A stretch of DNA of 44,468 nucleotides, taken from IMG/VR virus record IMGVR_UViG_2778261246_000004, positions 1-44,468 of that record, one strand, 5' to 3'. Of the stretch, positions 11,653 to 39,364 are shown piece after piece. How positions within the stretch are numbered: the stretch's first letter is position 1; each line of letters starts with the position of its first letter. Source of the stretch: a virus (lineage: Duplodnaviria > Heunggongvirae > Uroviricota > Caudoviricetes). Under the pieces are notes generated by a model. It did no database searches. It was not told the DNA's origin and worked only from the letters and a program-made list of their open reading frames with translations. Both the position numbers and the translations under genes were made by a program.

Positions 11653-12239
11653 ACACCTGCCTCACTCTGCCCGCCTGTGGGCACTGTCTTTGTTGTCACA
11701 CCGGTACTTCTGATTTTTTCTGTCGCCATCACATAGCCGTAACCAAATCCACGCCCTGTGCTGTTCCCGTAAACGTGAATACTGAACCAGCTGCGCAGAT
11801 TTTTGGCACGGAGCACCGCATGCTTCAGATCCTGATGATCATTCATCAGCACCGGTAAATCCTTCTGCTCCACGTTCAGACGAAAGGTATACGGCTCCCC
11901 GGGTGGGGTCTGCTCATACCACTCAACAATCTGCGACCGGAAGGGACTGTCAGCCAGCGATGCCATCAGCGCCGCTTTAGTCCCTCTGTGGCGGTGGATG
12001 TAAGCAGCACGTTTTATCGCAGACCGTTTTTCCGCCTCCGTCCAGTGTTCATTCCAGGTGTCCACCGCCATTTCCCAGGCCAGCCATGGCAGCAATTCAG
12101 CAGGACATAAATCGGGATTTTTCACATAGCGGATCAGGCAGACCGCTATGTCTGACAGCATATCTCCGGCGACACAGTCCACCACCCGCTCTGCCCGGCT
12201 GGCACTGACCGGCAGTATGCTCCTGATATCGTCATTCAT
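11649..12239 (-). CDS. Baseplate protein gpI-like
   Basis: 196-aa ORF; motif PA.LLPWLAWE/A...D.W matches P2 gpI by memory; position after gpJ. Confidence 0.75.
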   Translation of the reverse strand: MNDDIRSILPVSASRAERVVDCVAGDMLSDIAVCLIRYVKNPDLCPAELLPWLAWEMAVDTWNEHWTEAEKRSAIKRAAYIHRHRGTKAALMASLADSPFRSQIVEWYEQTPPGEPYTFRLNVEQKDLPVLMNDHQDLKHAVLRAKNLRSWFSIHVYGNSTGRGFGYGYVMATEKIRSTGVTTKTVPTGGQSEAGV

Positions 12240-13146
12240 CAGTTGTCTCCACCTTATTCAGCGTTACCTTACGGCACCACGGTGCCTGCCCCATCGCAGG
12301 AACGATATCACTGCCCGGAGAAGTCAGATTCACCGTAATCACCCCGGTCTGGTGAAGGGCACCATCCATGCCAGAACGGGATGCCACCGAGCCAATCCGG
12401 TGGACACTGTCAGTGTATGACTGCAGCGCCTTGTGGGCATTTGCCATAACCAGTTCACCATCCAGTCCGTAGGGAATATGAATATCCGCCACCACATCGT
12501 AGGGAATAATTTCTGCCGCCCGGACACTGACAAAATCCGTCAGGGGACGGGTTTCATCATCACAGACTGATGCTGCCACCTTATCCAGCAGAGGTTGTGA
12601 TGCAGTGCCATTTCCGGACCGGGATAACACATAAAGAAAAACCCGGCCTTCCTGCGAATGTGTTTCCGGCCCGTAAGCCTTCACATCCAGCACGTCAGGA
12701 TCAGCACTTTGTGCAAAATAGTGATACGCATTTTTCGCGCCGGCGGTGCTGAGCCGTGCCCATGACAACTGGATACGTTCGCGAAAAGCGTCATCATCTT
12801 CATACACCGCCGGCGTGGGCGGAACGGTGCTGTCGTCTGCCGGGGTAATCACCAGACGCTGTACCTGAAAATTCGCACCAATCTGATCCAGGTCGTTCCT
12901 TCGGGCGCTCGCAAGCAGTACACCCCGGACAGCATCATTGACCTGCTGGCGCATCAGCGCCACCCGGAAAGCCAGCGCCTCTGCCCATTTATACGCGGGA
13001 TCAGATTCCACCAGAGCCGAAAACAACGTATCCAGCTCCTGATACTTCGCCACTATCTGAGTGACCAGCACAGCGGTGTCCGGCACCTCCACCGCATCCG
13101 GTACCGGTATCGCGGACAGATCAATAATTGCCTGAGACGTTGCCAA
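12232..13146 (-). CDS. Baseplate assembly protein J (P2 gpJ-like)
   Basis: 304-aa ORF (P2 gpJ is about 302 aa); V-W-J-I order. Confidence 0.8.
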   Translation of the reverse strand: MATSQAIIDLSAIPVPDAVEVPDTAVLVTQIVAKYQELDTLFSALVESDPAYKWAEALAFRVALMRQQVNDAVRGVLLASARRNDLDQIGANFQVQRLVITPADDSTVPPTPAVYEDDDAFRERIQLSWARLSTAGAKNAYHYFAQSADPDVLDVKAYGPETHSQEGRVFLYVLSRSGNGTASQPLLDKVAASVCDDETRPLTDFVSVRAAEIIPYDVVADIHIPYGLDGELVMANAHKALQSYTDSVHRIGSVASRSGMDGALHQTGVITVNLTSPGSDIVPAMGQAPWCRKVTLNKVETTDE

Positions 13147-28881: not shown

Positions 28882-28956
<75 letters not shown>

Positions 28957-28959
28957 ATA

Positions 28960-29035
<76 letters not shown>

Positions 29036-29037
29036 AC

Positions 29038-29114
29038 TGGACCGCCACCGGGGACTCGAACCTCGCACACTCAACTTAAAGGGTTGACGCTCTTTCCTGA
29101 TGAGCTAGTGGCGG
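29038..29114 (-). tRNA. tRNA-like element B (divergent; anticodon loop CCUUUAA, possibly UUU)
   Basis: Acceptor CCGCCAC/GTGGCGG, U8, A14, GG in D-loop, perfect 5-bp anticodon stem TCAAC/GTTGA, T-loop TTCGAGT, CCA; position 33 is C not U. Confidence 0.45.
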
Positions 29115-29115
29115 T

Positions 29116-29191
29116 TGGTGGCCCTTGCTGGATTTGAACCAGCGACCTGGCGATTATGAGTCGCTCGCTCTCACCACTGAGCTAAAGGGCC
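29116..29191 (-). tRNA. tRNA with anticodon CAU, closest to tRNA-Ile2 (lysidine type, ileX/ileZ-like)
   Basis: GGCCCTTTAGCTCAGTGGT.AGAGC...GACTCATAATCGC...GGTTCAAATCCAGCAAGGGCCACCA; near-identical to E. coli ileX by memory. Confidence 0.8.
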
Positions 29192-33099: not shown

Positions 33100-33135
33100 T
33101 CTGTTGTCGTCAACAGGCAACGTGCTATCATCGAA
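33100..33135 (+). promoter_or_regulatory. Candidate parDE promoter with overlapping palindromic operator
   Basis: TTGTCG - 16 nt - TATCAT upstream of parD; inverted repeat CTGTTG-TCGT-CAACAG overlaps the -35. Confidence 0.4.
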
Positions 33136-33166
33136 TGGTGTTCTATCCTACTCCGTGAGGTTTACC

Positions 33167-33424
33167 ATGCGTACAACCCAACAATTCAGCATTACATTAA
33201 CTAACGAAATGGCTGACATGGTGCGCGCCCGTGTGGCTTCCGGTGCCTATGCTTCAGAAAGCGAGGTCATTCGTGAAGGACTTCGCGCACTGAATGAGCG
33301 CGATAAAGCAATCGAAGCGTGGTTAACGCATTCAGCCGCTCCCTCTCTTGATTCTATCCGCGAAAATCCAAACAACGGACGCTCCATTTCACAGGTTCGC
33401 GCCGCGATTCGATCCGGGAAGTAA
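33167..33424 (+). CDS. parD: Type II antitoxin, ParD family (ribbon-helix-helix)
   Basis: 85-aa product from ATG 33167 (GAGG RBS); FSITL..EMA..V...V.SG.Y.S.SEVIREGLR.L motif; 6-nt spacing to toxin gene. Confidence 0.7.
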   Translation: MRTTQQFSITLTNEMADMVRARVASGAYASESEVIREGLRALNERDKAIEAWLTHSAAPSLDSIRENPNNGRSISQVRAAIRSGK

Positions 33425-33429
33425 TCTGC

Positions 33430-33729
33430 ATGACATATGAAGTCATCATTACTCCTGAGGCCGAACAACAAATAATCAACCTGCACAGATATATAACGGA
33501 GAAAGCAGGGAACGTCATTGCTGACAATTATGCCAATGCGCTTCTTGATTATCTTGATGGGTTTTCTACATTCCCGCATCGGGGCAATAAACGCGATGAT
33601 ATTCGCCAGGGGATGCGGGTAACTCATTTCCGCCACAGAACGATTATTGCTTTTGCCGTTGATGGCAGAAAAGTCTTTATTGTCGGTATCTATCATGGTG
33701 GGCAAAGTTATGAAACCGATTTCTTATAA
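33430..33729 (+). CDS. parE: Type II toxin, ParE/RelE family
   Basis: 99-aa ORF directly downstream of parD; typical size and pairing. Confidence 0.7.
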   Translation: MTYEVIITPEAEQQIINLHRYITEKAGNVIADNYANALLDYLDGFSTFPHRGNKRDDIRQGMRVTHFRHRTIIAFAVDGRKVFIVGIYHGGQSYETDFL

Positions 33730-33934
33730 ACTTTTACCCACATCATTCCGGTGTTAGAATAAACCGTCCGCCTCCTCTCTTACTGGCGGATTCGTAGGCT
33801 ATATAAATCAAAGATCCCGGCTCATGTTTGTGTCGGGATCTTTTTTTCGGCGATTTATCCCCAGCGGCAAATCGAATACACCACCAGCGCCACCGCCATC
33901 GCAATTCCTACCGTGGTGAATGCCTCAGGCCAGG

Positions 33935-34330
33935 TCATCGATTCACCTCCTGCTCAATATTTTTAAGGTCATTTTCCGCATACAGTATTGCTGTTCTGGC
34001 TGCTCGTAACCGGGCTTTGGCGTTTTTCTCTTCACGTTCAAGTTTTGCCACAGCTTCACGAAGAGCATCCCGCTTTGCATAGAGTGATTTAATCTCAGAC
34101 ACTATGTTTTCACCGTTTCTCGCACGGTCGAGAACAAGCTCGAACGGATCTAAAGCCAATCCGCATCGGTTACAGGTAATCGTACGATTCACTTCTGAAA
34201 TTGTTGTACGGATATGCTGACAGCATTTTTGCTCGCCGCTTTTTCTGTCGGCTATCACAACGTTGAGGAGTCCTTCCTCCTCTGATTTTGGCTGTACCAG
34301 AGTGATAACATTGTCGACTTCATTTTTCAT
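33935..34330 (-). CDS. Zinc-finger plus coiled-coil protein (paralog A)
   Basis: 131 aa; C..H...C..C motif then coiled-coil tail ...EREEKNAKARLRAARTA; paralogous to the 34943-35299 product. Confidence 0.5.
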   Translation of the reverse strand: MKNEVDNVITLVQPKSEEEGLLNVVIADRKSGEQKCCQHIRTTISEVNRTITCNRCGLALDPFELVLDRARNGENIVSEIKSLYAKRDALREAVAKLEREEKNAKARLRAARTAILYAENDLKNIEQEVNR

Positions 34331-34845
34331 CAGCTCACCTCCTGCGGCGGTTCCGGTAGCGGCATCCAGTCTGTTACATTGCGGCTCTGTGTTTCAAAAA
34401 ATTCATCACCATTGCGGACAATATCGAAAAACTCACCGTCTCGATATTGCGCATAAAGAACGAATGCGCCATCACATAAAATAATTACGTGCTGACCGTC
34501 CACTGGCATCCGCTCACTACAGCTTATCCAACCATCCGGAATTACCGGCGCTGATGGCGCTGCGTAAAGTGGTGTTATTTCTGCCCGAAAGTCACCTATT
34601 TCATGCAGCCGCACCCACTGTTCAGCTTCTGCTTTGTCAGAATACATAGCGGTGAACGTATTATATTCATGGTCAATTTGCGTGAAGGTTGCCTTCCAGG
34701 CCACCGGCTCTGCTTCCAGCGATGCCAGTGCAATTTTGAATAACTCACCATCTACCTGTGCCATCCCTGAATTTGGGTGGCATTTCACAATTGCTATTTT
34801 TAATTTAGCTTCTTCGATTAATTGCTCTTTGGTTAATTCAGTCAT
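34330..34845 (-). CDS. DUF551-like phage protein
   Basis: 171 aa; C-terminal W.S..E..P...........W.PLPEPP motif typical of DUF551 (from memory). Confidence 0.55.
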   Translation of the reverse strand: MTELTKEQLIEEAKLKIAIVKCHPNSGMAQVDGELFKIALASLEAEPVAWKATFTQIDHEYNTFTAMYSDKAEAEQWVRLHEIGDFRAEITPLYAAPSAPVIPDGWISCSERMPVDGQHVIILCDGAFVLYAQYRDGEFFDIVRNGDEFFETQSRNVTDWMPLPEPPQEVS

Positions 34846-34942
34846 TTTTCATTACCGCCATTTCAGACGGTCTCCCGATGTTCTGAGGGGGCAGAAATCC
34901 CTCCGGTTAAGGATTAAATTTTATTTACAGCGCTAAATTTAT

Positions 34943-35299
34943 TTATTCAGTTCTGGATTTTGTCGCCCTGCGTATCCGCGCTTTCGCGTTACGCTCAATC
35001 TGAATTAACTTTTCTATATTTTTCCGTCTTTCCTGTTCCTCCTGGCGCAATAGCCTTACATCATCTGCCAGTCTGGTTTCTCTTTTCGCCACTGAGAGCA
35101 TCCAGTCAAACGGCTCCACAACTGCACCGCAGATTTTACAGCGGACCTGACGCTCTTTTTCGTCAACCCGGACAGAAGCGTGATGGCAGTATGGTCTTTC
35201 CGATGGCTCATAAAGAAAATTAACTTGATTACGTGGGTCATCCTCTTTTGCCGGAAATAAAACAATATTACTTAACTCATCTTCTGGTTTTATTTCCAT
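34943..35299 (-). CDS. Zinc-finger plus coiled-coil protein (paralog B)
   Basis: Start at ATG 35299 (MEIKPEDE, RBS AAAGGAGAGGAG); C.H...C..C motif and C-terminal ...IERNAKARIRRATKS parallel to paralog A. Confidence 0.5.
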   Translation of the reverse strand: MEIKPEDELSNIVLFPAKEDDPRNQVNFLYEPSERPYCHHASVRVDEKERQVRCKICGAVVEPFDWMLSVAKRETRLADDVRLLRQEEQERRKNIEKLIQIERNAKARIRRATKSRTE

Positions 35300-35356: not shown

Positions 35357-35779
35357 TCACAGCACCACCTCCTGAAATTTCCCCTGATAAAACGACAATA
35401 TGCGCTGCATAACTTCACTCTTCCGGCACTCGCGACAGATTATGTTCTGACGCCTGTCGTAGCGACGTATTTCTCCGTCAGGTAATGACCAGATAAGGTC
35501 CGGATCAACCGCAGATGGTTTCTTCAGCTTTGCCCTTGAGAGCTTTTTACGGGCATTTTGCCAGTCCTTACGCGCCTGTTCAGACGGGAATAACCCGTAA
35601 CCAGAGTTGTATACATCGCCGCTGGCAACCAGCTCTCTTGCGAGAACGCTCATCAGATATCTTGTCGCACCTGTCTTGACTTCCAGTTGCCGTAACGTCT
35701 CACGCCCACTCTGGCGTACGAGTTCAACAACCTGTCCTTTAATTTTTTCCCGCTCTTCTTGTGTAAAAACTTTTGCCAC
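35357..35779 (-). CDS. Hypothetical phage early protein
   Basis: 140-aa ORF in an operon with replication and nin genes; basic, with Cys pair C.EC. Confidence 0.4.
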   Translation of the reverse strand: MAKVFTQEEREKIKGQVVELVRQSGRETLRQLEVKTGATRYLMSVLARELVASGDVYNSGYGLFPSEQARKDWQNARKKLSRAKLKKPSAVDPDLIWSLPDGEIRRYDRRQNIICRECRKSEVMQRILSFYQGKFQEVVL

Positions 35780-35819: not shown

Positions 35820-36896
35820 TTACCCCCTGAAGCCCGGCGGAATTTCGTTATCCGGTTCAGAAATATGATTCACACAACGCTGGTTGTTCGTGCCGCTTAC
35901 CGGGAGCAACCAGGGGTTCTCAAAATTCCGGTCCGGTCCAAAAAACGTCGTCGCTCGCTGAACAAATTCCGTTCCCGTTTTCCCGGTAGCCGCCAGGTAT
36001 CTTGCGTAACGCCTCACGCCATCCAGCATGGCCTCTGGTGGCACCCCCTCGCGTAATCTGGCCTTCCAGGCACTGAAAGCTGATTTCTTCGGGTTTGCTC
36101 CGGCACGCAACGGGTACTCCCGCCAGACCTGTTCGAACACATCCGGATAATCCACTCGTCCCACAGACTGCCCGGTGTTTTCCGGGACTACCCGATCGGC
36201 TTCCCGCTGAATGGCGGAATCGGCTTCGGGCTGCTGCAGTTGGTGTGATTGCTCCAGCCTTGCGGTCATCACCTGCTGCACAGCGCCCGAATCGGCTTTC
36301 AGCGCATACGCTGAATCGGCTTCCGGTGTCGTGCCTGCTGGCTGACCAAGATTGACGGTCTGAACATCCCCTGCCTGGTTCGTGGCGTTTTTTACGCCAT
36401 GGACCATAGTGTTTTGATCTTCTTGATCTGTATCTTTATCTGTATCTTTATCTGTCGTGACTCGTCGTGACATGTGCGTGACATTTCGTGACGCGCCGTG
36501 ACAATCGCCATTTTGTTCCCGCTTTCTTTCCCTCTCTCGCTGCGCCCTCTTGCGCTCTGCAGGAGATTTTGCGGTTTGCGAAATATTGCCGTTGTCCTCT
36601 TTAAGCACCTGGCGTTTTTCCCATCCAGTGATTAAATCACCATCAAGTACCCGCCCCTGCATCGTCTGCAAAATTGAATCAATTACCTCTTCTGTCACGT
36701 CGAGCGCACTTGCCAAATCTTCTGTCGTGACATCAATGTGACCTCGCGTGACATTTCGTGACGCGCTCACCAGGAGGTGGATATACACTGCCATCACTGT
36801 TGCAATTGGCTGCCCTGACACCCTGGCAATTGTTCGCCACTTAGGGTCATTTGGCATGTCATGCCATAATCTGAGCCAGGCGTTAGCCATACTCAC
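35820..36896 (-). CDS. Replication initiation protein (replisome-organizer type) containing the putative origin iterons
   Basis: 358 aa; N-terminus MANAWLRLWHDMPNDPKW...IA..VY.HLL typical of phage replisome organizers (memory); two clusters of CGTGAC repeats inside the gene. Confidence 0.6.
   Translation of the reverse strand: MSMANAWLRLWHDMPNDPKWRTIARVSGQPIATVMAVYIHLLVSASRNVTRGHIDVTTEDLASALDVTEEVIDSILQTMQGRVLDGDLITGWEKRQVLKEDNGNISQTAKSPAERKRAQRERERKREQNGDCHGASRNVTHMSRRVTTDKDTDKDTDQEDQNTMVHGVKNATNQAGDVQTVNLGQPAGTTPEADSAYALKADSGAVQQVMTARLEQSHQLQQPEADSAIQREADRVVPENTGQSVGRVDYPDVFEQVWREYPLRAGANPKKSAFSAWKARLREGVPPEAMLDGVRRYARYLAATGKTGTEFVQRATTFFGPDRNFENPWLLPVSGTNNQRCVNHISEPDNEIPPGFRG
36434..36515. 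repeat. Iteron cluster 1: 2.5 copies of ATCTGTATCTTT then five CGTGAC repeats at 10-11 bp spacing
   Basis: Seen directly; 22-bp element GCGTGACATTTCGTGACGCGC shared with cluster 2. Confidence 0.6.
36690..36765. repeat. Iteron cluster 2: four to five GTCACG/CGTGAC repeats including second copy of GCGTGACATTTCGTGACGCGC
   Basis: Seen directly, about 260 bp from cluster 1 inside the same gene. Confidence 0.6.
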
Positions 36897-39311: not shown

Positions 39312-39364
39312 TTTCTGGTGACGTTTGGCGGTATCAGTTTTACTCCGTGACTGCTCTGCCGCCC
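39312..39364 (+). ncRNA. dicF: DicF small regulatory RNA
   Basis: UUUCUGGUGACGUUUGGCGGUAUCAGUUUUACUCCGUGACUGCUCUGCCGCCC plus U5 matches remembered E. coli DicF; lies between ydfC-like and dicB as in Qin. Confidence 0.8.

What the first reader, a model, noticed from the sequence alone, without database searches (positions are those of the whole stretch)
33935..35299. Two paralogous zinc-finger/coiled-coil genes flanking a DUF551-like gene
Seen: the 131-aa and 118-aa products share a CxxH...CxxC motif followed by a basic coiled-coil tail (KNAKARLRAARTA versus RNAKARIRRATKS) and sit either side of a DUF551-like ORF, all co-directional with tight junctions. Inference: a duplicated, diverged nin-region regulator or nucleic-acid-binding protein; function unknown to me.
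Basis: seen in the sequence. Interest (0 to 1): 0.45.

Follow-up and report, generated by a model that had tools for sequence, protein, structure and literature searches.

The report
Two diverged zinc-ribbon zipper phage genes
Two small genes in an E. coli lambdoid prophage are real but very distant relatives from a widespread, uncharacterised phage protein family (a zinc-binding knob, a long coiled-coil helix and an almost invariant basic patch); what the family does is still only an inference.

Summary
On the minus strand, gene B (34943-35299, 118 aa) and gene A (33935-34330, 131 aa) are homologous (BLASTP E=2e-13, 25% identity). Both match PHROG 1621 (unknown function) and flank a true DUF551 gene (34330-34845). 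The shared zinc motif is CxH-x13-CxxC, not CxxH. It is followed by a roughly 55-70-residue heptad-repeat helix carrying E-(R/K)-N-A-K-A-R-(L/I)-R.

The family is large (2017 clusters at 50% identity) and occurs in phage contigs of 27-72% GC. It has no Pfam or NCBIfam model, no solved relative and no literature that I could find. Both genes are under purifying selection (median dN/dS 0.07 for B, 0.23 for A).

The pair is not a local duplication. A and B are as far apart as the deepest splits in the family. Most phages carry one copy. Gene A is a cassette bracketed by a repeated 19-nt junction.

My best inference is a coiled-coil dimer that binds nucleic acid, or a conserved host machine, early in the phage programme. 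This function is not shown. The finding is ordinary in kind and moderately interesting as an uncharacterised pan-phage family.

The parts
34943..35299 (-). Gene B: 118-aa zinc-ribbon / coiled-coil protein (PHROG 1621, B-type subfamily)
   Evidence: ORF with a strong Shine-Dalgarno sequence. PHROG 1621 at 1.7e-56. AF2 model: residues 1-33 disordered, hairpin 43-54, helix 63-117. dN/dS median 0.07 over 21 alleles. Present at >=90% nt identity in 1679 of 5426 complete E. coli genomes.
35129..35188 (-). B zinc ribbon, residues 38-57 (C38-x-H40 ... C54-x-x-C57)
   Evidence: The Cys positions are invariant in 129/129 diverse homologues; His is present in 125/129, with Cys in the other 4. The best Foldseek PDB hit is the TFIIB N-terminal zinc ribbon, which is weak (E=0.23).
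34970..34996 (-). B basic motif E102-R-N-A-K-A-R-I-R110
   Evidence: Read directly from the sequence. Family-wide counts: E102 115/129, N104 113, K106 113, R108 120.
34330..34845 (-). Middle gene: 171-aa acidic protein with an Ead/YfdT-like N-terminus and a C-terminal DUF551 domain
   Evidence: Pfam DUF551 E=1e-19 at residues 105-168. The first 47 residues resemble YfdT (E=3e-6). pI 4.46, net charge -16. Its stop overlaps the start of A by 1 nt.
33935..34330 (-). Gene A: 131-aa zinc-ribbon / coiled-coil protein (PHROG 1621, A-type subfamily)
   Evidence: PHROG 1621 at 1.5e-47. AF2 with 123 sequences: mean pLDDT 90.3, hairpin 42-53, single helix 62-130. dN/dS median 0.23 over 4 alleles. A 59%-identical homologue sits in 933W and other Stx phages.
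34163..34222 (-). A zinc ribbon, residues 37-56 (C37-x-H39 ... C53-x-x-C56)
   Evidence: Alignments A1 and A4.
34004..34030 (-). A basic motif E101-K-N-A-K-A-R-L-R109
   Evidence: Read directly from the sequence. In A the heptad repeat continues to the C-terminus after this motif (inferred by applying the heptad register to A's sequence).
34327..34345 (-). Junction repeat, copy 1 (DUF551 to A): GCAGGAGGTGAGCTGATGA
   Evidence: Direct repeat D7. Aligned with the other junctions.
33935..33953 (-). Junction repeat, copy 2 (A to the 27-codon ORF): GCAGGAGGTGAATCGATGA
   Evidence: The same junction joins DUF551 directly to the 27-codon ORF in a prophage that lacks A (L098).
33855..33938 (-). Unannotated 27-codon ORF (MTWPEAFTTVGIAMAVALVVYSICRWG), translationally coupled to A through an ATGA overlap; last ORF of the unit
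   Evidence: Found in most of the lambdoid loci fetched, at 59-100% aa identity in those listed before the output was cut, with or without A upstream. No family match.
33810..33843 (.). Inverted repeat between this operon and the convergent parDE genes; probably a bidirectional terminator
   Evidence: Inverted repeat I6: 15-nt arms, 87% complementary, 4-nt loop. It has a T-run on the + strand and a weaker one on the - strand. The simple terminator scan did not flag it.
35357..35779 (-). Upstream neighbour in the same transcription direction: DUF977 ('Ren-like' / LygF) gene
   Evidence: Pfam DUF977 E=1.1e-30 and PHROG 142. It lies immediately upstream of B-type genes in 41 of 80 IMG/VR loci.

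Best explanation
A and B are two anciently diverged members of one widespread, uncharacterised phage protein family (PHROG 1621). Mosaic recombination, not local duplication, brought them into the same early operon.

Shown: each protein has three parts.
1. An acidic N-terminal peptide with a conserved hydrophobic stretch (hydrophobic-hydrophobic-x-hydrophobic, often followed by Pro).
2. A CHCC zinc ribbon (C-x-H-x13-C-x-x-C, followed by D-P-F).
3. One long helix with a continuous heptad repeat. This helix carries a nearly invariant basic block, E-(R/K)-N-A-K-A-R-(L/I)-R.

Inferred: the helix forms a coiled-coil dimer, probably parallel. The dimer would place two zinc ribbons at one end and a two-fold basic surface near the other. 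That basic surface binds nucleic acid, or an equally conserved host machine. I exclude a phage-specific operator because the motif is the same in phages of hosts from different phyla.

Inferred: the genes are transcribed with the replication genes from the early rightward promoter and act early, as accessory (non-essential) functions.
For: Homology and family membership:
- A versus B: BLASTP E=2e-13. Both match PHROG 1621.
- An exhaustive profile search finds 2017 clusters at E<=1e-3 and 580 at E<=1e-10.

Conserved features:
- The zinc ligands and the ERNAKAR block are invariant or nearly so in 129 diverse members.
- Hydrophobic residues sit at heptad positions a/d from residue 67 to 116. Position 102 (a) is a conserved Glu and position 105 (d) is small.
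- g-to-e' charge pairs favour a parallel register at 87->92 (44 attractive, 10 repulsive) and 101->106 (63 to 7).
- Positions 103-115 are overwhelmingly basic, and position 107 (f, the most exposed) is conserved as Ala/Ser/Gly. That pattern suggests close contact with a partner.

Structure: AF2 gives a zinc-ribbon hairpin plus one long helix. Mean pLDDT is 90.3 for A with a deep alignment and 73.7 for B.

Breadth: the motif occurs in phage contigs of 27%, 64%, 69% and 72% GC, and in named Solirubrobacterales, Longimicrobiales and Enterobacterales genomes.

Real genes: purifying selection on both.

Operon context:
- No promoter-like or terminator-like site lies on the minus strand between the replication genes and A.
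- B-type genes habitually follow the replication module and DUF977.

Mosaic origin rather than duplication.
Against: - No experiment or characterised homologue supports any function.
- There is no PDB relative by sequence. Fold searches return only generic zinc ribbons and long helices.
- Two of the four informative g-to-e' pairs are neutral or repulsive: 94->99 (27 attractive, 33 repulsive) and 108->113 (19 to 67).
- In the A-type the heptad repeat continues past the basic block. A bZIP-like fork is therefore unlikely there, and the basic face could equally bind an acidic protein.
- The bZIP signature is not met, and the profile comparison with GCN4 gives 5.5% probability.
Confidence: 0.4

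Rival explanations
1. The family is a protein-binding inhibitor or adaptor. The invariant basic helix, and/or the acidic N-terminal peptide, docks onto a conserved host protein such as a replisome, RNA polymerase or defence component. This would be a host-takeover or counter-defence function rather than nucleic-acid binding.
For: - The motif is essentially identical across hosts of very different phyla, which fits a universally conserved protein target.
- Every face of the helix is conserved around residues 100-111.
- The genes lie in accessory-gene regions next to antirepressor, TraR-like, Ea22-like and toxin-antitoxin genes.
- The N-terminal acidic/hydrophobic peptide is conserved in distant members.
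Against: - No partner was identified.
- PADLOC gives only coiled-coil noise: LmuB at about 1e-3 and the Cas12 zinc ribbon.
- No conserved neighbour gene exists outside Enterobacterales.
- The net positive charge of the motif also fits nucleic acid.
Confidence: 0.25
2. A and B work as partners of the acidic Ead/Ea22-DUF551 proteins encoded next to them. The basic coiled-coil block binds the acidic DUF551-type protein, and the complex modulates the lysis-lysogeny decision or host replication initiation, as reported for Ea22 and for the CPS-53 yfdQRST cluster.
For: - The DUF551-to-A junction is a 1-nt overlap, conserved in the window, in Stx phages and in strain 401651.
- DUF551/Ead-type genes lie just downstream of B-type genes in 58 of 80 loci.
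- The DUF551 protein here has pI 4.46 and net charge -16.
- Literature: Ea22 C-terminal domains are acidic and Ea22 favours lysogeny (PMC10834534). Overexpressed yfdQRS or yfdQRT inhibits oriC initiation (PMC4776307).
Against: - The same junction couples DUF551 directly to the 27-codon ORF when A is absent. The coupling is therefore a property of the junction, not of the gene pair.
- Distant family members have no DUF551 neighbour in the three loci with Pfam calls, yet they keep the motif.
- YfdT is not a family member; it has no Cys.
Confidence: 0.15
3. This is the first reader's reading: a locally duplicated, diverged, phage-specific transcription regulator of the nin region that recognises operators in this prophage.
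For: - The two genes are paralogous and sit 613 nt apart in one operon.
- A zinc ribbon plus a basic helix is compatible with DNA binding.
Against: - The A-B distance equals the deepest splits in the family.
- Each subfamily spreads independently, and single copies dominate.
- A is a cassette between repeated junctions.
- The putative DNA-contacting block does not vary between phages. That is unlike operator-specific regulators.
- No repeated palindromic site stands out around the genes.
Confidence: 0.07

Closest known systems
PHROG 1621 (phage orthologous group, function unknown)
   Same: Both A and B match the profile end to end, at E=1.5e-47 and 1.7e-56. They are members.
   Different: Nothing differs structurally. 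The group carries no annotation, so membership says nothing about function.
TFIIB/TFB-type zinc ribbon (Pfam PF08271) and other nucleic-acid-machine zinc ribbons (S27e, the TnpB/Cas12f TNB domain)
   Same: - Two zinc knuckles flank a beta-hairpin.
- The weak Pfam hits go to these families, and 25 of 123 family members touch PF08271.
- The best Foldseek PDB hit is 1pft.
   Different: - All scores are below the gathering thresholds.
- The ligand set is C-H-C-C rather than C4.
- The hhalign probability against TFB is 22%.
- No cyclin, RuvC or ribosomal context is present.
CHC2 zinc-binding domain of DnaG-type primases (Pfam PF01807)
   Same: - The ligand order is the same (Cys, His, Cys, Cys).
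- After the second knuckle comes a helix that starts similarly (CGxxx-D-F-L).
- The hhalign probability is 49% over 32 columns against the E. coli DnaG N-terminus, which I recalled from memory.
- The genes lie next to replication genes.
   Different: - The spacing is CxH-x13-CxxC rather than CxxH-x17-CxxC.
- The first knuckle did not align.
- hmmscan gave no PF01807 hit, even at E<=1.
- No primase catalytic domain is present.
bZIP transcription factors (e.g. GCN4)
   Same: - A heptad leucine zipper adjoins a conserved Asn/Ala/Arg-rich basic helix.
- The N-x-x-A spacing occurs in the basic block (N104, A107).
   Different: - The order is reversed: the zipper comes before the basic block.
- The N-x2-AA-x2-[CS]-R signature fails at three positions.
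- The hhalign probability is 5.5%.
- In the A-type the zipper resumes after the block.
- An extra zinc ribbon is present.
Bacterial coiled-coil plus zinc-domain proteins: YabA, HP0958 (COG1579), DksA/TraR
   Same: These are small proteins that combine a coiled coil with one zinc site and act on replication or transcription machines. A TraR homologue is encoded near A-type genes in Stx phages.
   Different: - The domain order is opposite: those proteins have the coiled coil first and the zinc site second.
- DksA/TraR use a C4 finger and an acidic DxxDxA tip.
- Only 3 of 123 members touch the YabA model weakly.
- No PF01258 hit was found.

Membership tests
PHROG 1621 | Significant full-length match to the family profile | tested here: met
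   A: 1.5e-47 over residues 1-130. B: 1.7e-56 over residues 1-117.
Zinc ribbon, TFIIB type (Pfam PF08271) | Score at or above the Pfam gathering threshold (29 bits) | tested here: not met
   B scores 21.5 bits (E=1.7e-4). A has no hit. 25 of 123 members hit at E<=0.1, best 1.3e-5.
Zinc ribbon (structural class) | Two zinc knuckles with four ligands flanking a beta-hairpin | tested here: met
   The C/H/C/C columns are invariant. AF2 places strands at 43-46/51-54 in B and 42-45/50-53 in A. The top Foldseek hit is 1pft. Zinc binding itself was not tested.
Primase CHC2 zinc-binding domain (Pfam PF01807) | CxxH-x17-CxxC motif with detectable profile similarity, normally fused to a primase core | tested here: inconclusive
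   The ligand order matches, but the spacing is CxH-x13-CxxC. The hhalign probability is 49%, covering only the second knuckle and the helix start. hmmscan gives no hit. No primase core is present.
bZIP | Basic region N-x2-AA-x2-[CS]-R lying N-terminal to the leucine zipper | tested here: not met
   The basic block lies C-terminal to heptads 67-98. Its sequence is N-A-K-A-R-L-R-R-A. The hhalign probability against GCN4 is 5.5%.
DksA/TraR (Pfam PF01258) | C4 finger CxxC-x17-CxxC after an N-terminal helix with a DxxDxA tip | tested here: not met
   No PF01258 hit at E<=1. The ligand set is CHCC, and the zinc site comes before the long helix.
DUF551 (Pfam PF04448), middle gene only | Score above the gathering threshold (22 bits) | tested here: met
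   71.6 bits, E=1e-19, residues 105-168, covering the whole 68-position profile.
Parallel dimeric coiled coil | Continuous a/d hydrophobic heptads, complementary g-to-e' charges, and demonstrated dimerisation | tested here: inconclusive
   The a/d pattern is clear from residue 67 to 116. Charge pairs 87->92 and 101->106 are favourable; 94->99 and 108->113 are not.

The most novel reading that the evidence does not exclude
PHROG 1621 could be a previously unrecognised pan-bacterial class of phage 'zinc-ribbon reverse-zipper' proteins. Its invariant ERNAKAR surface would grip a universally conserved nucleic-acid transaction, for example forked or primed DNA at replication initiation, or a conserved polymerase or helicase surface. 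Phages carrying two subfamily members, as here, would use homo- and heterodimers to widen that activity.
Probability: 0.15. Interest if true: 0.65.

Novelty: new member of a known kind. Interest (0 to 1): 0.35.

Why it matters
Gene B alone is present in about 31% of complete E. coli genomes, in up to five copies. Relatives sit in Shiga-toxin phages such as 933W. Yet the family has no Pfam or NCBIfam model, no solved structure and no literature that I could find.

A motif kept nearly unchanged in phages of hosts from Actinomycetota to Enterobacterales points to a conserved target. Finding that target would annotate thousands of 'hypothetical proteins'. It could also reveal a general early-infection function.

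The pairing itself is a by-product of mosaic recombination rather than a designed two-gene system.

Tried and rejected
- Solved relatives by sequence: only coiled-coil noise.
- Fold searches:
  - Foldseek against PDB gave a weak TFIIB ribbon hit.
  - Foldseek against BFVD gave nothing significant.
  - The afdb50 library was unavailable.
- Pfam scans of ten longer family members, looking for informative fusions, found nothing. The Ead_Ea22, DUF977 and DUF1133 'fusions' in the databases look like read-through or frameshift products.
- PADLOC gave only coiled-coil or zinc-ribbon noise.
- Literature searches (DUF977, L0139, phrog_1621, zinc-ribbon/lambdoid terms) found nothing on this family.
- The DUF551 literature led to the CPS-53 yfdQRST cluster. 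However, YfdT is not a member (no Cys); it only shares an N-terminal module with the middle gene.
- Cluster look-ups gave no organism names for distant members.
- The broad-alignment genome scan failed for lack of a conserved stretch. It worked with a motif-anchored alignment.
- Neighbour annotation in a Longimicrobiales locus, plus one ORF from a Solirubrobacterales locus, was uninformative.
- I considered SSB-tail mimicry or a clamp-binding motif for the N-terminal acidic/hydrophobic peptide. I could not test this and leave it as an idea only.

Full report
**What is there**

The region is read on the minus strand and belongs to a lambdoid (Rac/Qin-like early region, HK97-like head) E. coli prophage. 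The closest complete genome is strain RM10740, 98.5% identical over 2.1 kb. The gene order in the direction of transcription is:

1. cro-like gene
2. YdaT/cII-like gene
3. replisome organiser (35820-36896)
4. DUF977 'Ren-like' gene (35357-35779)
5. gene B (34943-35299, 118 aa)
6. DUF551 gene (34330-34845, 171 aa)
7. gene A (33935-34330, 131 aa)
8. an unannotated 27-codon ORF (33855-33938)
9. an inverted repeat (33810-33843)

After that come the convergent parD/parE genes, then DUF968, RusA and Q. No promoter-like or terminator-like site was found on the minus strand between the replication genes and A. The genes are therefore most simply part of the early rightward transcript.

**Checking the observation**

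- A and B align over 109 residues at 25% identity, E=2e-13.
- Both match PHROG 1621 end to end, at 1.5e-47 and 1.7e-56.
- The middle gene is a true DUF551 protein (E=1e-19).
- Only the DUF551/A junction is tight (TGATG, 1-nt overlap). B is separated from its neighbours by 57 and 97 nt.
- Both genes are under purifying selection. Median dN/dS against other alleles is 0.07 for B (n=21) and 0.23 for A (n=4).

**Anatomy of the family**

An exhaustive profile search finds 2017 clusters (50% identity) at E<=1e-3 and 580 at E<=1e-10. In 129 diverse members the following are conserved, in B numbering:

| Position(s) | Conservation |
|---|---|
| C38, C54, C57 | 129/129 |
| H40 | 125/129 (Cys in the other 4) |
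| R50 | 123 |
| D62-P63-F64 | 103 / 95 / 94 |
| A71 | 116 |
| L98 | 119 |
| Block R100, E102, R/K103, N104, K106, A/S107, R108, L/I109, R/K110 | about 70-99% each |

A short N-terminal stretch (hydrophobic-hydrophobic-x-hydrophobic, often followed by Pro) preceded by acidic residues is also conserved.

Heptad analysis shows hydrophobic a/d positions running continuously from residue 67 to 116. Position 102 (a) is a conserved Glu, and position 105 (d) is small. Residues 103-115 are almost entirely basic, and position 107 (f, the most exposed) is a conserved small residue.

The g-to-e' charge pairs favour a parallel register at 87->92 (44 attractive, 10 repulsive) and 101->106 (63 to 7). They do not at 94->99 or 108->113. 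Helix orientation is therefore suggested, not shown.

AlphaFold2 gives a beta-hairpin zinc ribbon and one uninterrupted helix:

- B: residues 63-117, mean pLDDT 73.7 with 25 sequences.
- A: residues 62-130, mean pLDDT 90.3 with 123 sequences.

In the A-type the heptad pattern resumes after the basic block, as far as I can read by applying the register to A's sequence. A bZIP-like splayed fork is therefore unlikely for that subfamily.

**Comparison with known families**

- No Pfam or NCBIfam model reaches threshold. The recurring sub-threshold hits are the TFIIB zinc ribbon (25 of 123 members), S27e, and leucine-zipper or coiled-coil families.
- No PDB relative exists by sequence.
- Fold searches return only the TFIIB ribbon (E=0.23) and generic long helices.
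- Profile comparisons give 49% probability for the E. coli DnaG CHC2 zinc domain (second knuckle and helix start only), 22% for a TFB ribbon and 5.5% for GCN4. The query sequences for these three were recalled from memory, so they are leads rather than tests.
- I found no paper on the family.

The nearest experimental data concern neighbouring gene types, not this family. Ea22/DUF551 mosaics favour lysogeny (PMC10834534). The CPS-53 yfdQRST cluster inhibits oriC initiation when overexpressed (PMC4776307). YfdT, which follows DUF551 there, is not a member of this family.

**Distribution and context**

- The family occurs in phage contigs of 27%, 64%, 69% and 72% GC. Each time it sits among small early or accessory genes (DNA methyltransferase, PAPS reductase, DUF2303, LexA-like, RusA, DnaT-like).
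- It also occurs in named Solirubrobacterales, Longimicrobiales, Pasteurellaceae and many Enterobacterales genomes.
- In 80 IMG/VR loci, mostly enterobacterial, B-type genes typically follow DUF977 (41 loci) and a replication module of varying type. They are followed by Ead/DUF551-type genes (58 loci).
- A-type genes also occur at the attR end of 933W-like Stx phages, after antirepressor, TraR-like and Ea22/DUF551 genes and before hok/sok.
- A B-type gene lies in the ead/Ea22 region of phage ArgO145.
- B is present in 1679 of 5426 complete E. coli genomes, in up to five copies. This A allele is present at >=80% coverage in 74 genomes.

**Why the pair is not a local duplication**

- A and B are as far apart (25-26%) as either is from metagenomic members of other phyla.
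- Each has its own subfamily across several genera.
- Two copies within 5 kb occur in 1 of 80 IMG/VR loci. Among GenBank phages only one record shows both, and there the B copy is disrupted.
- Related prophages carry B without A, a decayed B together with A, or different cassettes between the two.
- A is bracketed by a 19-nt repeated junction, GCAGGAGGTGAnnnGATGA. This junction ends one ORF, supplies the Shine-Dalgarno sequence and starts the next. The same junction joins DUF551 directly to the 27-codon ORF where A is absent.

**Most likely mechanism**

The steps are marked as shown or inferred.

- Shown: homology, the domain layout, the conservation pattern, purifying selection and early-operon placement.
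- Inferred: zinc binding.
- Inferred: a coiled-coil dimer, probably parallel.
- Inferred: the invariant basic, small-residue-centred surface contacts nucleic acid or a conserved host machine.
- Argument against a regulator of phage-specific operators: the putative contact residues do not vary among phages of unrelated hosts.

The rivals are a protein-binding inhibitor or adaptor of a conserved host factor, and a partner of the acidic Ead/DUF551 proteins (the one here has pI 4.46).

**Verdict**

This is a real and correctly located observation. The two genes are members of a catalogued but functionally blank phage family. Interest is moderate (0.35). The value lies in the family's breadth and its invariant motif, not in the pairing.

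Noticed in passing
window 33855-33938 (-): An unannotated 27-codon ORF (MTWPEAFTTVGIAMAVALVVYSICRWG). It has one hydrophobic helix, its ATG overlaps the stop of gene A (ATGA), and a Shine-Dalgarno sequence lies upstream. It appears in most of the lambdoid loci fetched, at 59-100% aa identity in those listed before the output was cut. These include 933W-type Stx phages and prophages without gene A. It has no family match and is not annotated in RefSeq records.
   Followed up: partly
window 33935-33953 and 34327-34345: A 19-nt direct repeat, GCAGGAGGTGAnnnGATGA, forms both boundaries of gene A. The same junction links DUF551 directly to the 27-codon ORF in strain ECL27977 (L098). It looks like a portable recombination and translational-coupling junction.
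   Followed up: yes
window 36464-36502 and 36724-36762 (also 36195-36230 / 36291-36326): Clusters of CGTGAC-type direct repeats lie inside the replisome-organiser gene. They resemble origin iterons embedded in an initiator gene, as in lambda O.
   Followed up: no
window 33104-33729 (+): A parD/parE toxin-antitoxin pair is convergent with the operon. In Stx phages and many other lambdoid loci the equivalent position holds hok/sok instead. This points to a toxin-antitoxin slot just beyond the operon end.
   Followed up: partly
window 39313-39364 (+) and 28885-29191 (-): A DicF antisense RNA (76.7 bits) lies next to dicB/ydfD-type genes. A block of four tRNA genes lies on the late-gene side of Q, beyond the nin region.
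   Followed up: no
L001 (NZ_CP043821.1) 12236-12850; L099 (NZ_CP019953.1) 1345-1701: In the closest complete genome (RM10740), gene A is annotated as frameshifted and the DUF551 gene as truncated. In strain M8, gene B has an internal stop. The genes therefore decay in some lysogens, although they are under purifying selection overall.
   Followed up: partly
window 34333-34845 (-), residues 1-47: The N-terminus of the DUF551 protein resembles the N-terminus of CPS-53 YfdT (E=3e-6). This shows the module shuffling typical of Ead/Ea22-type proteins.
   Followed up: partly
window 35820-36896 (-): The replication module has a replisome-organiser gene (DnaD/DnaT-like matches) followed directly by DUF977. 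No DnaC- or P-type helicase loader gene lies between them. Related loci pair B-type genes with several different replication modules.
   Followed up: no
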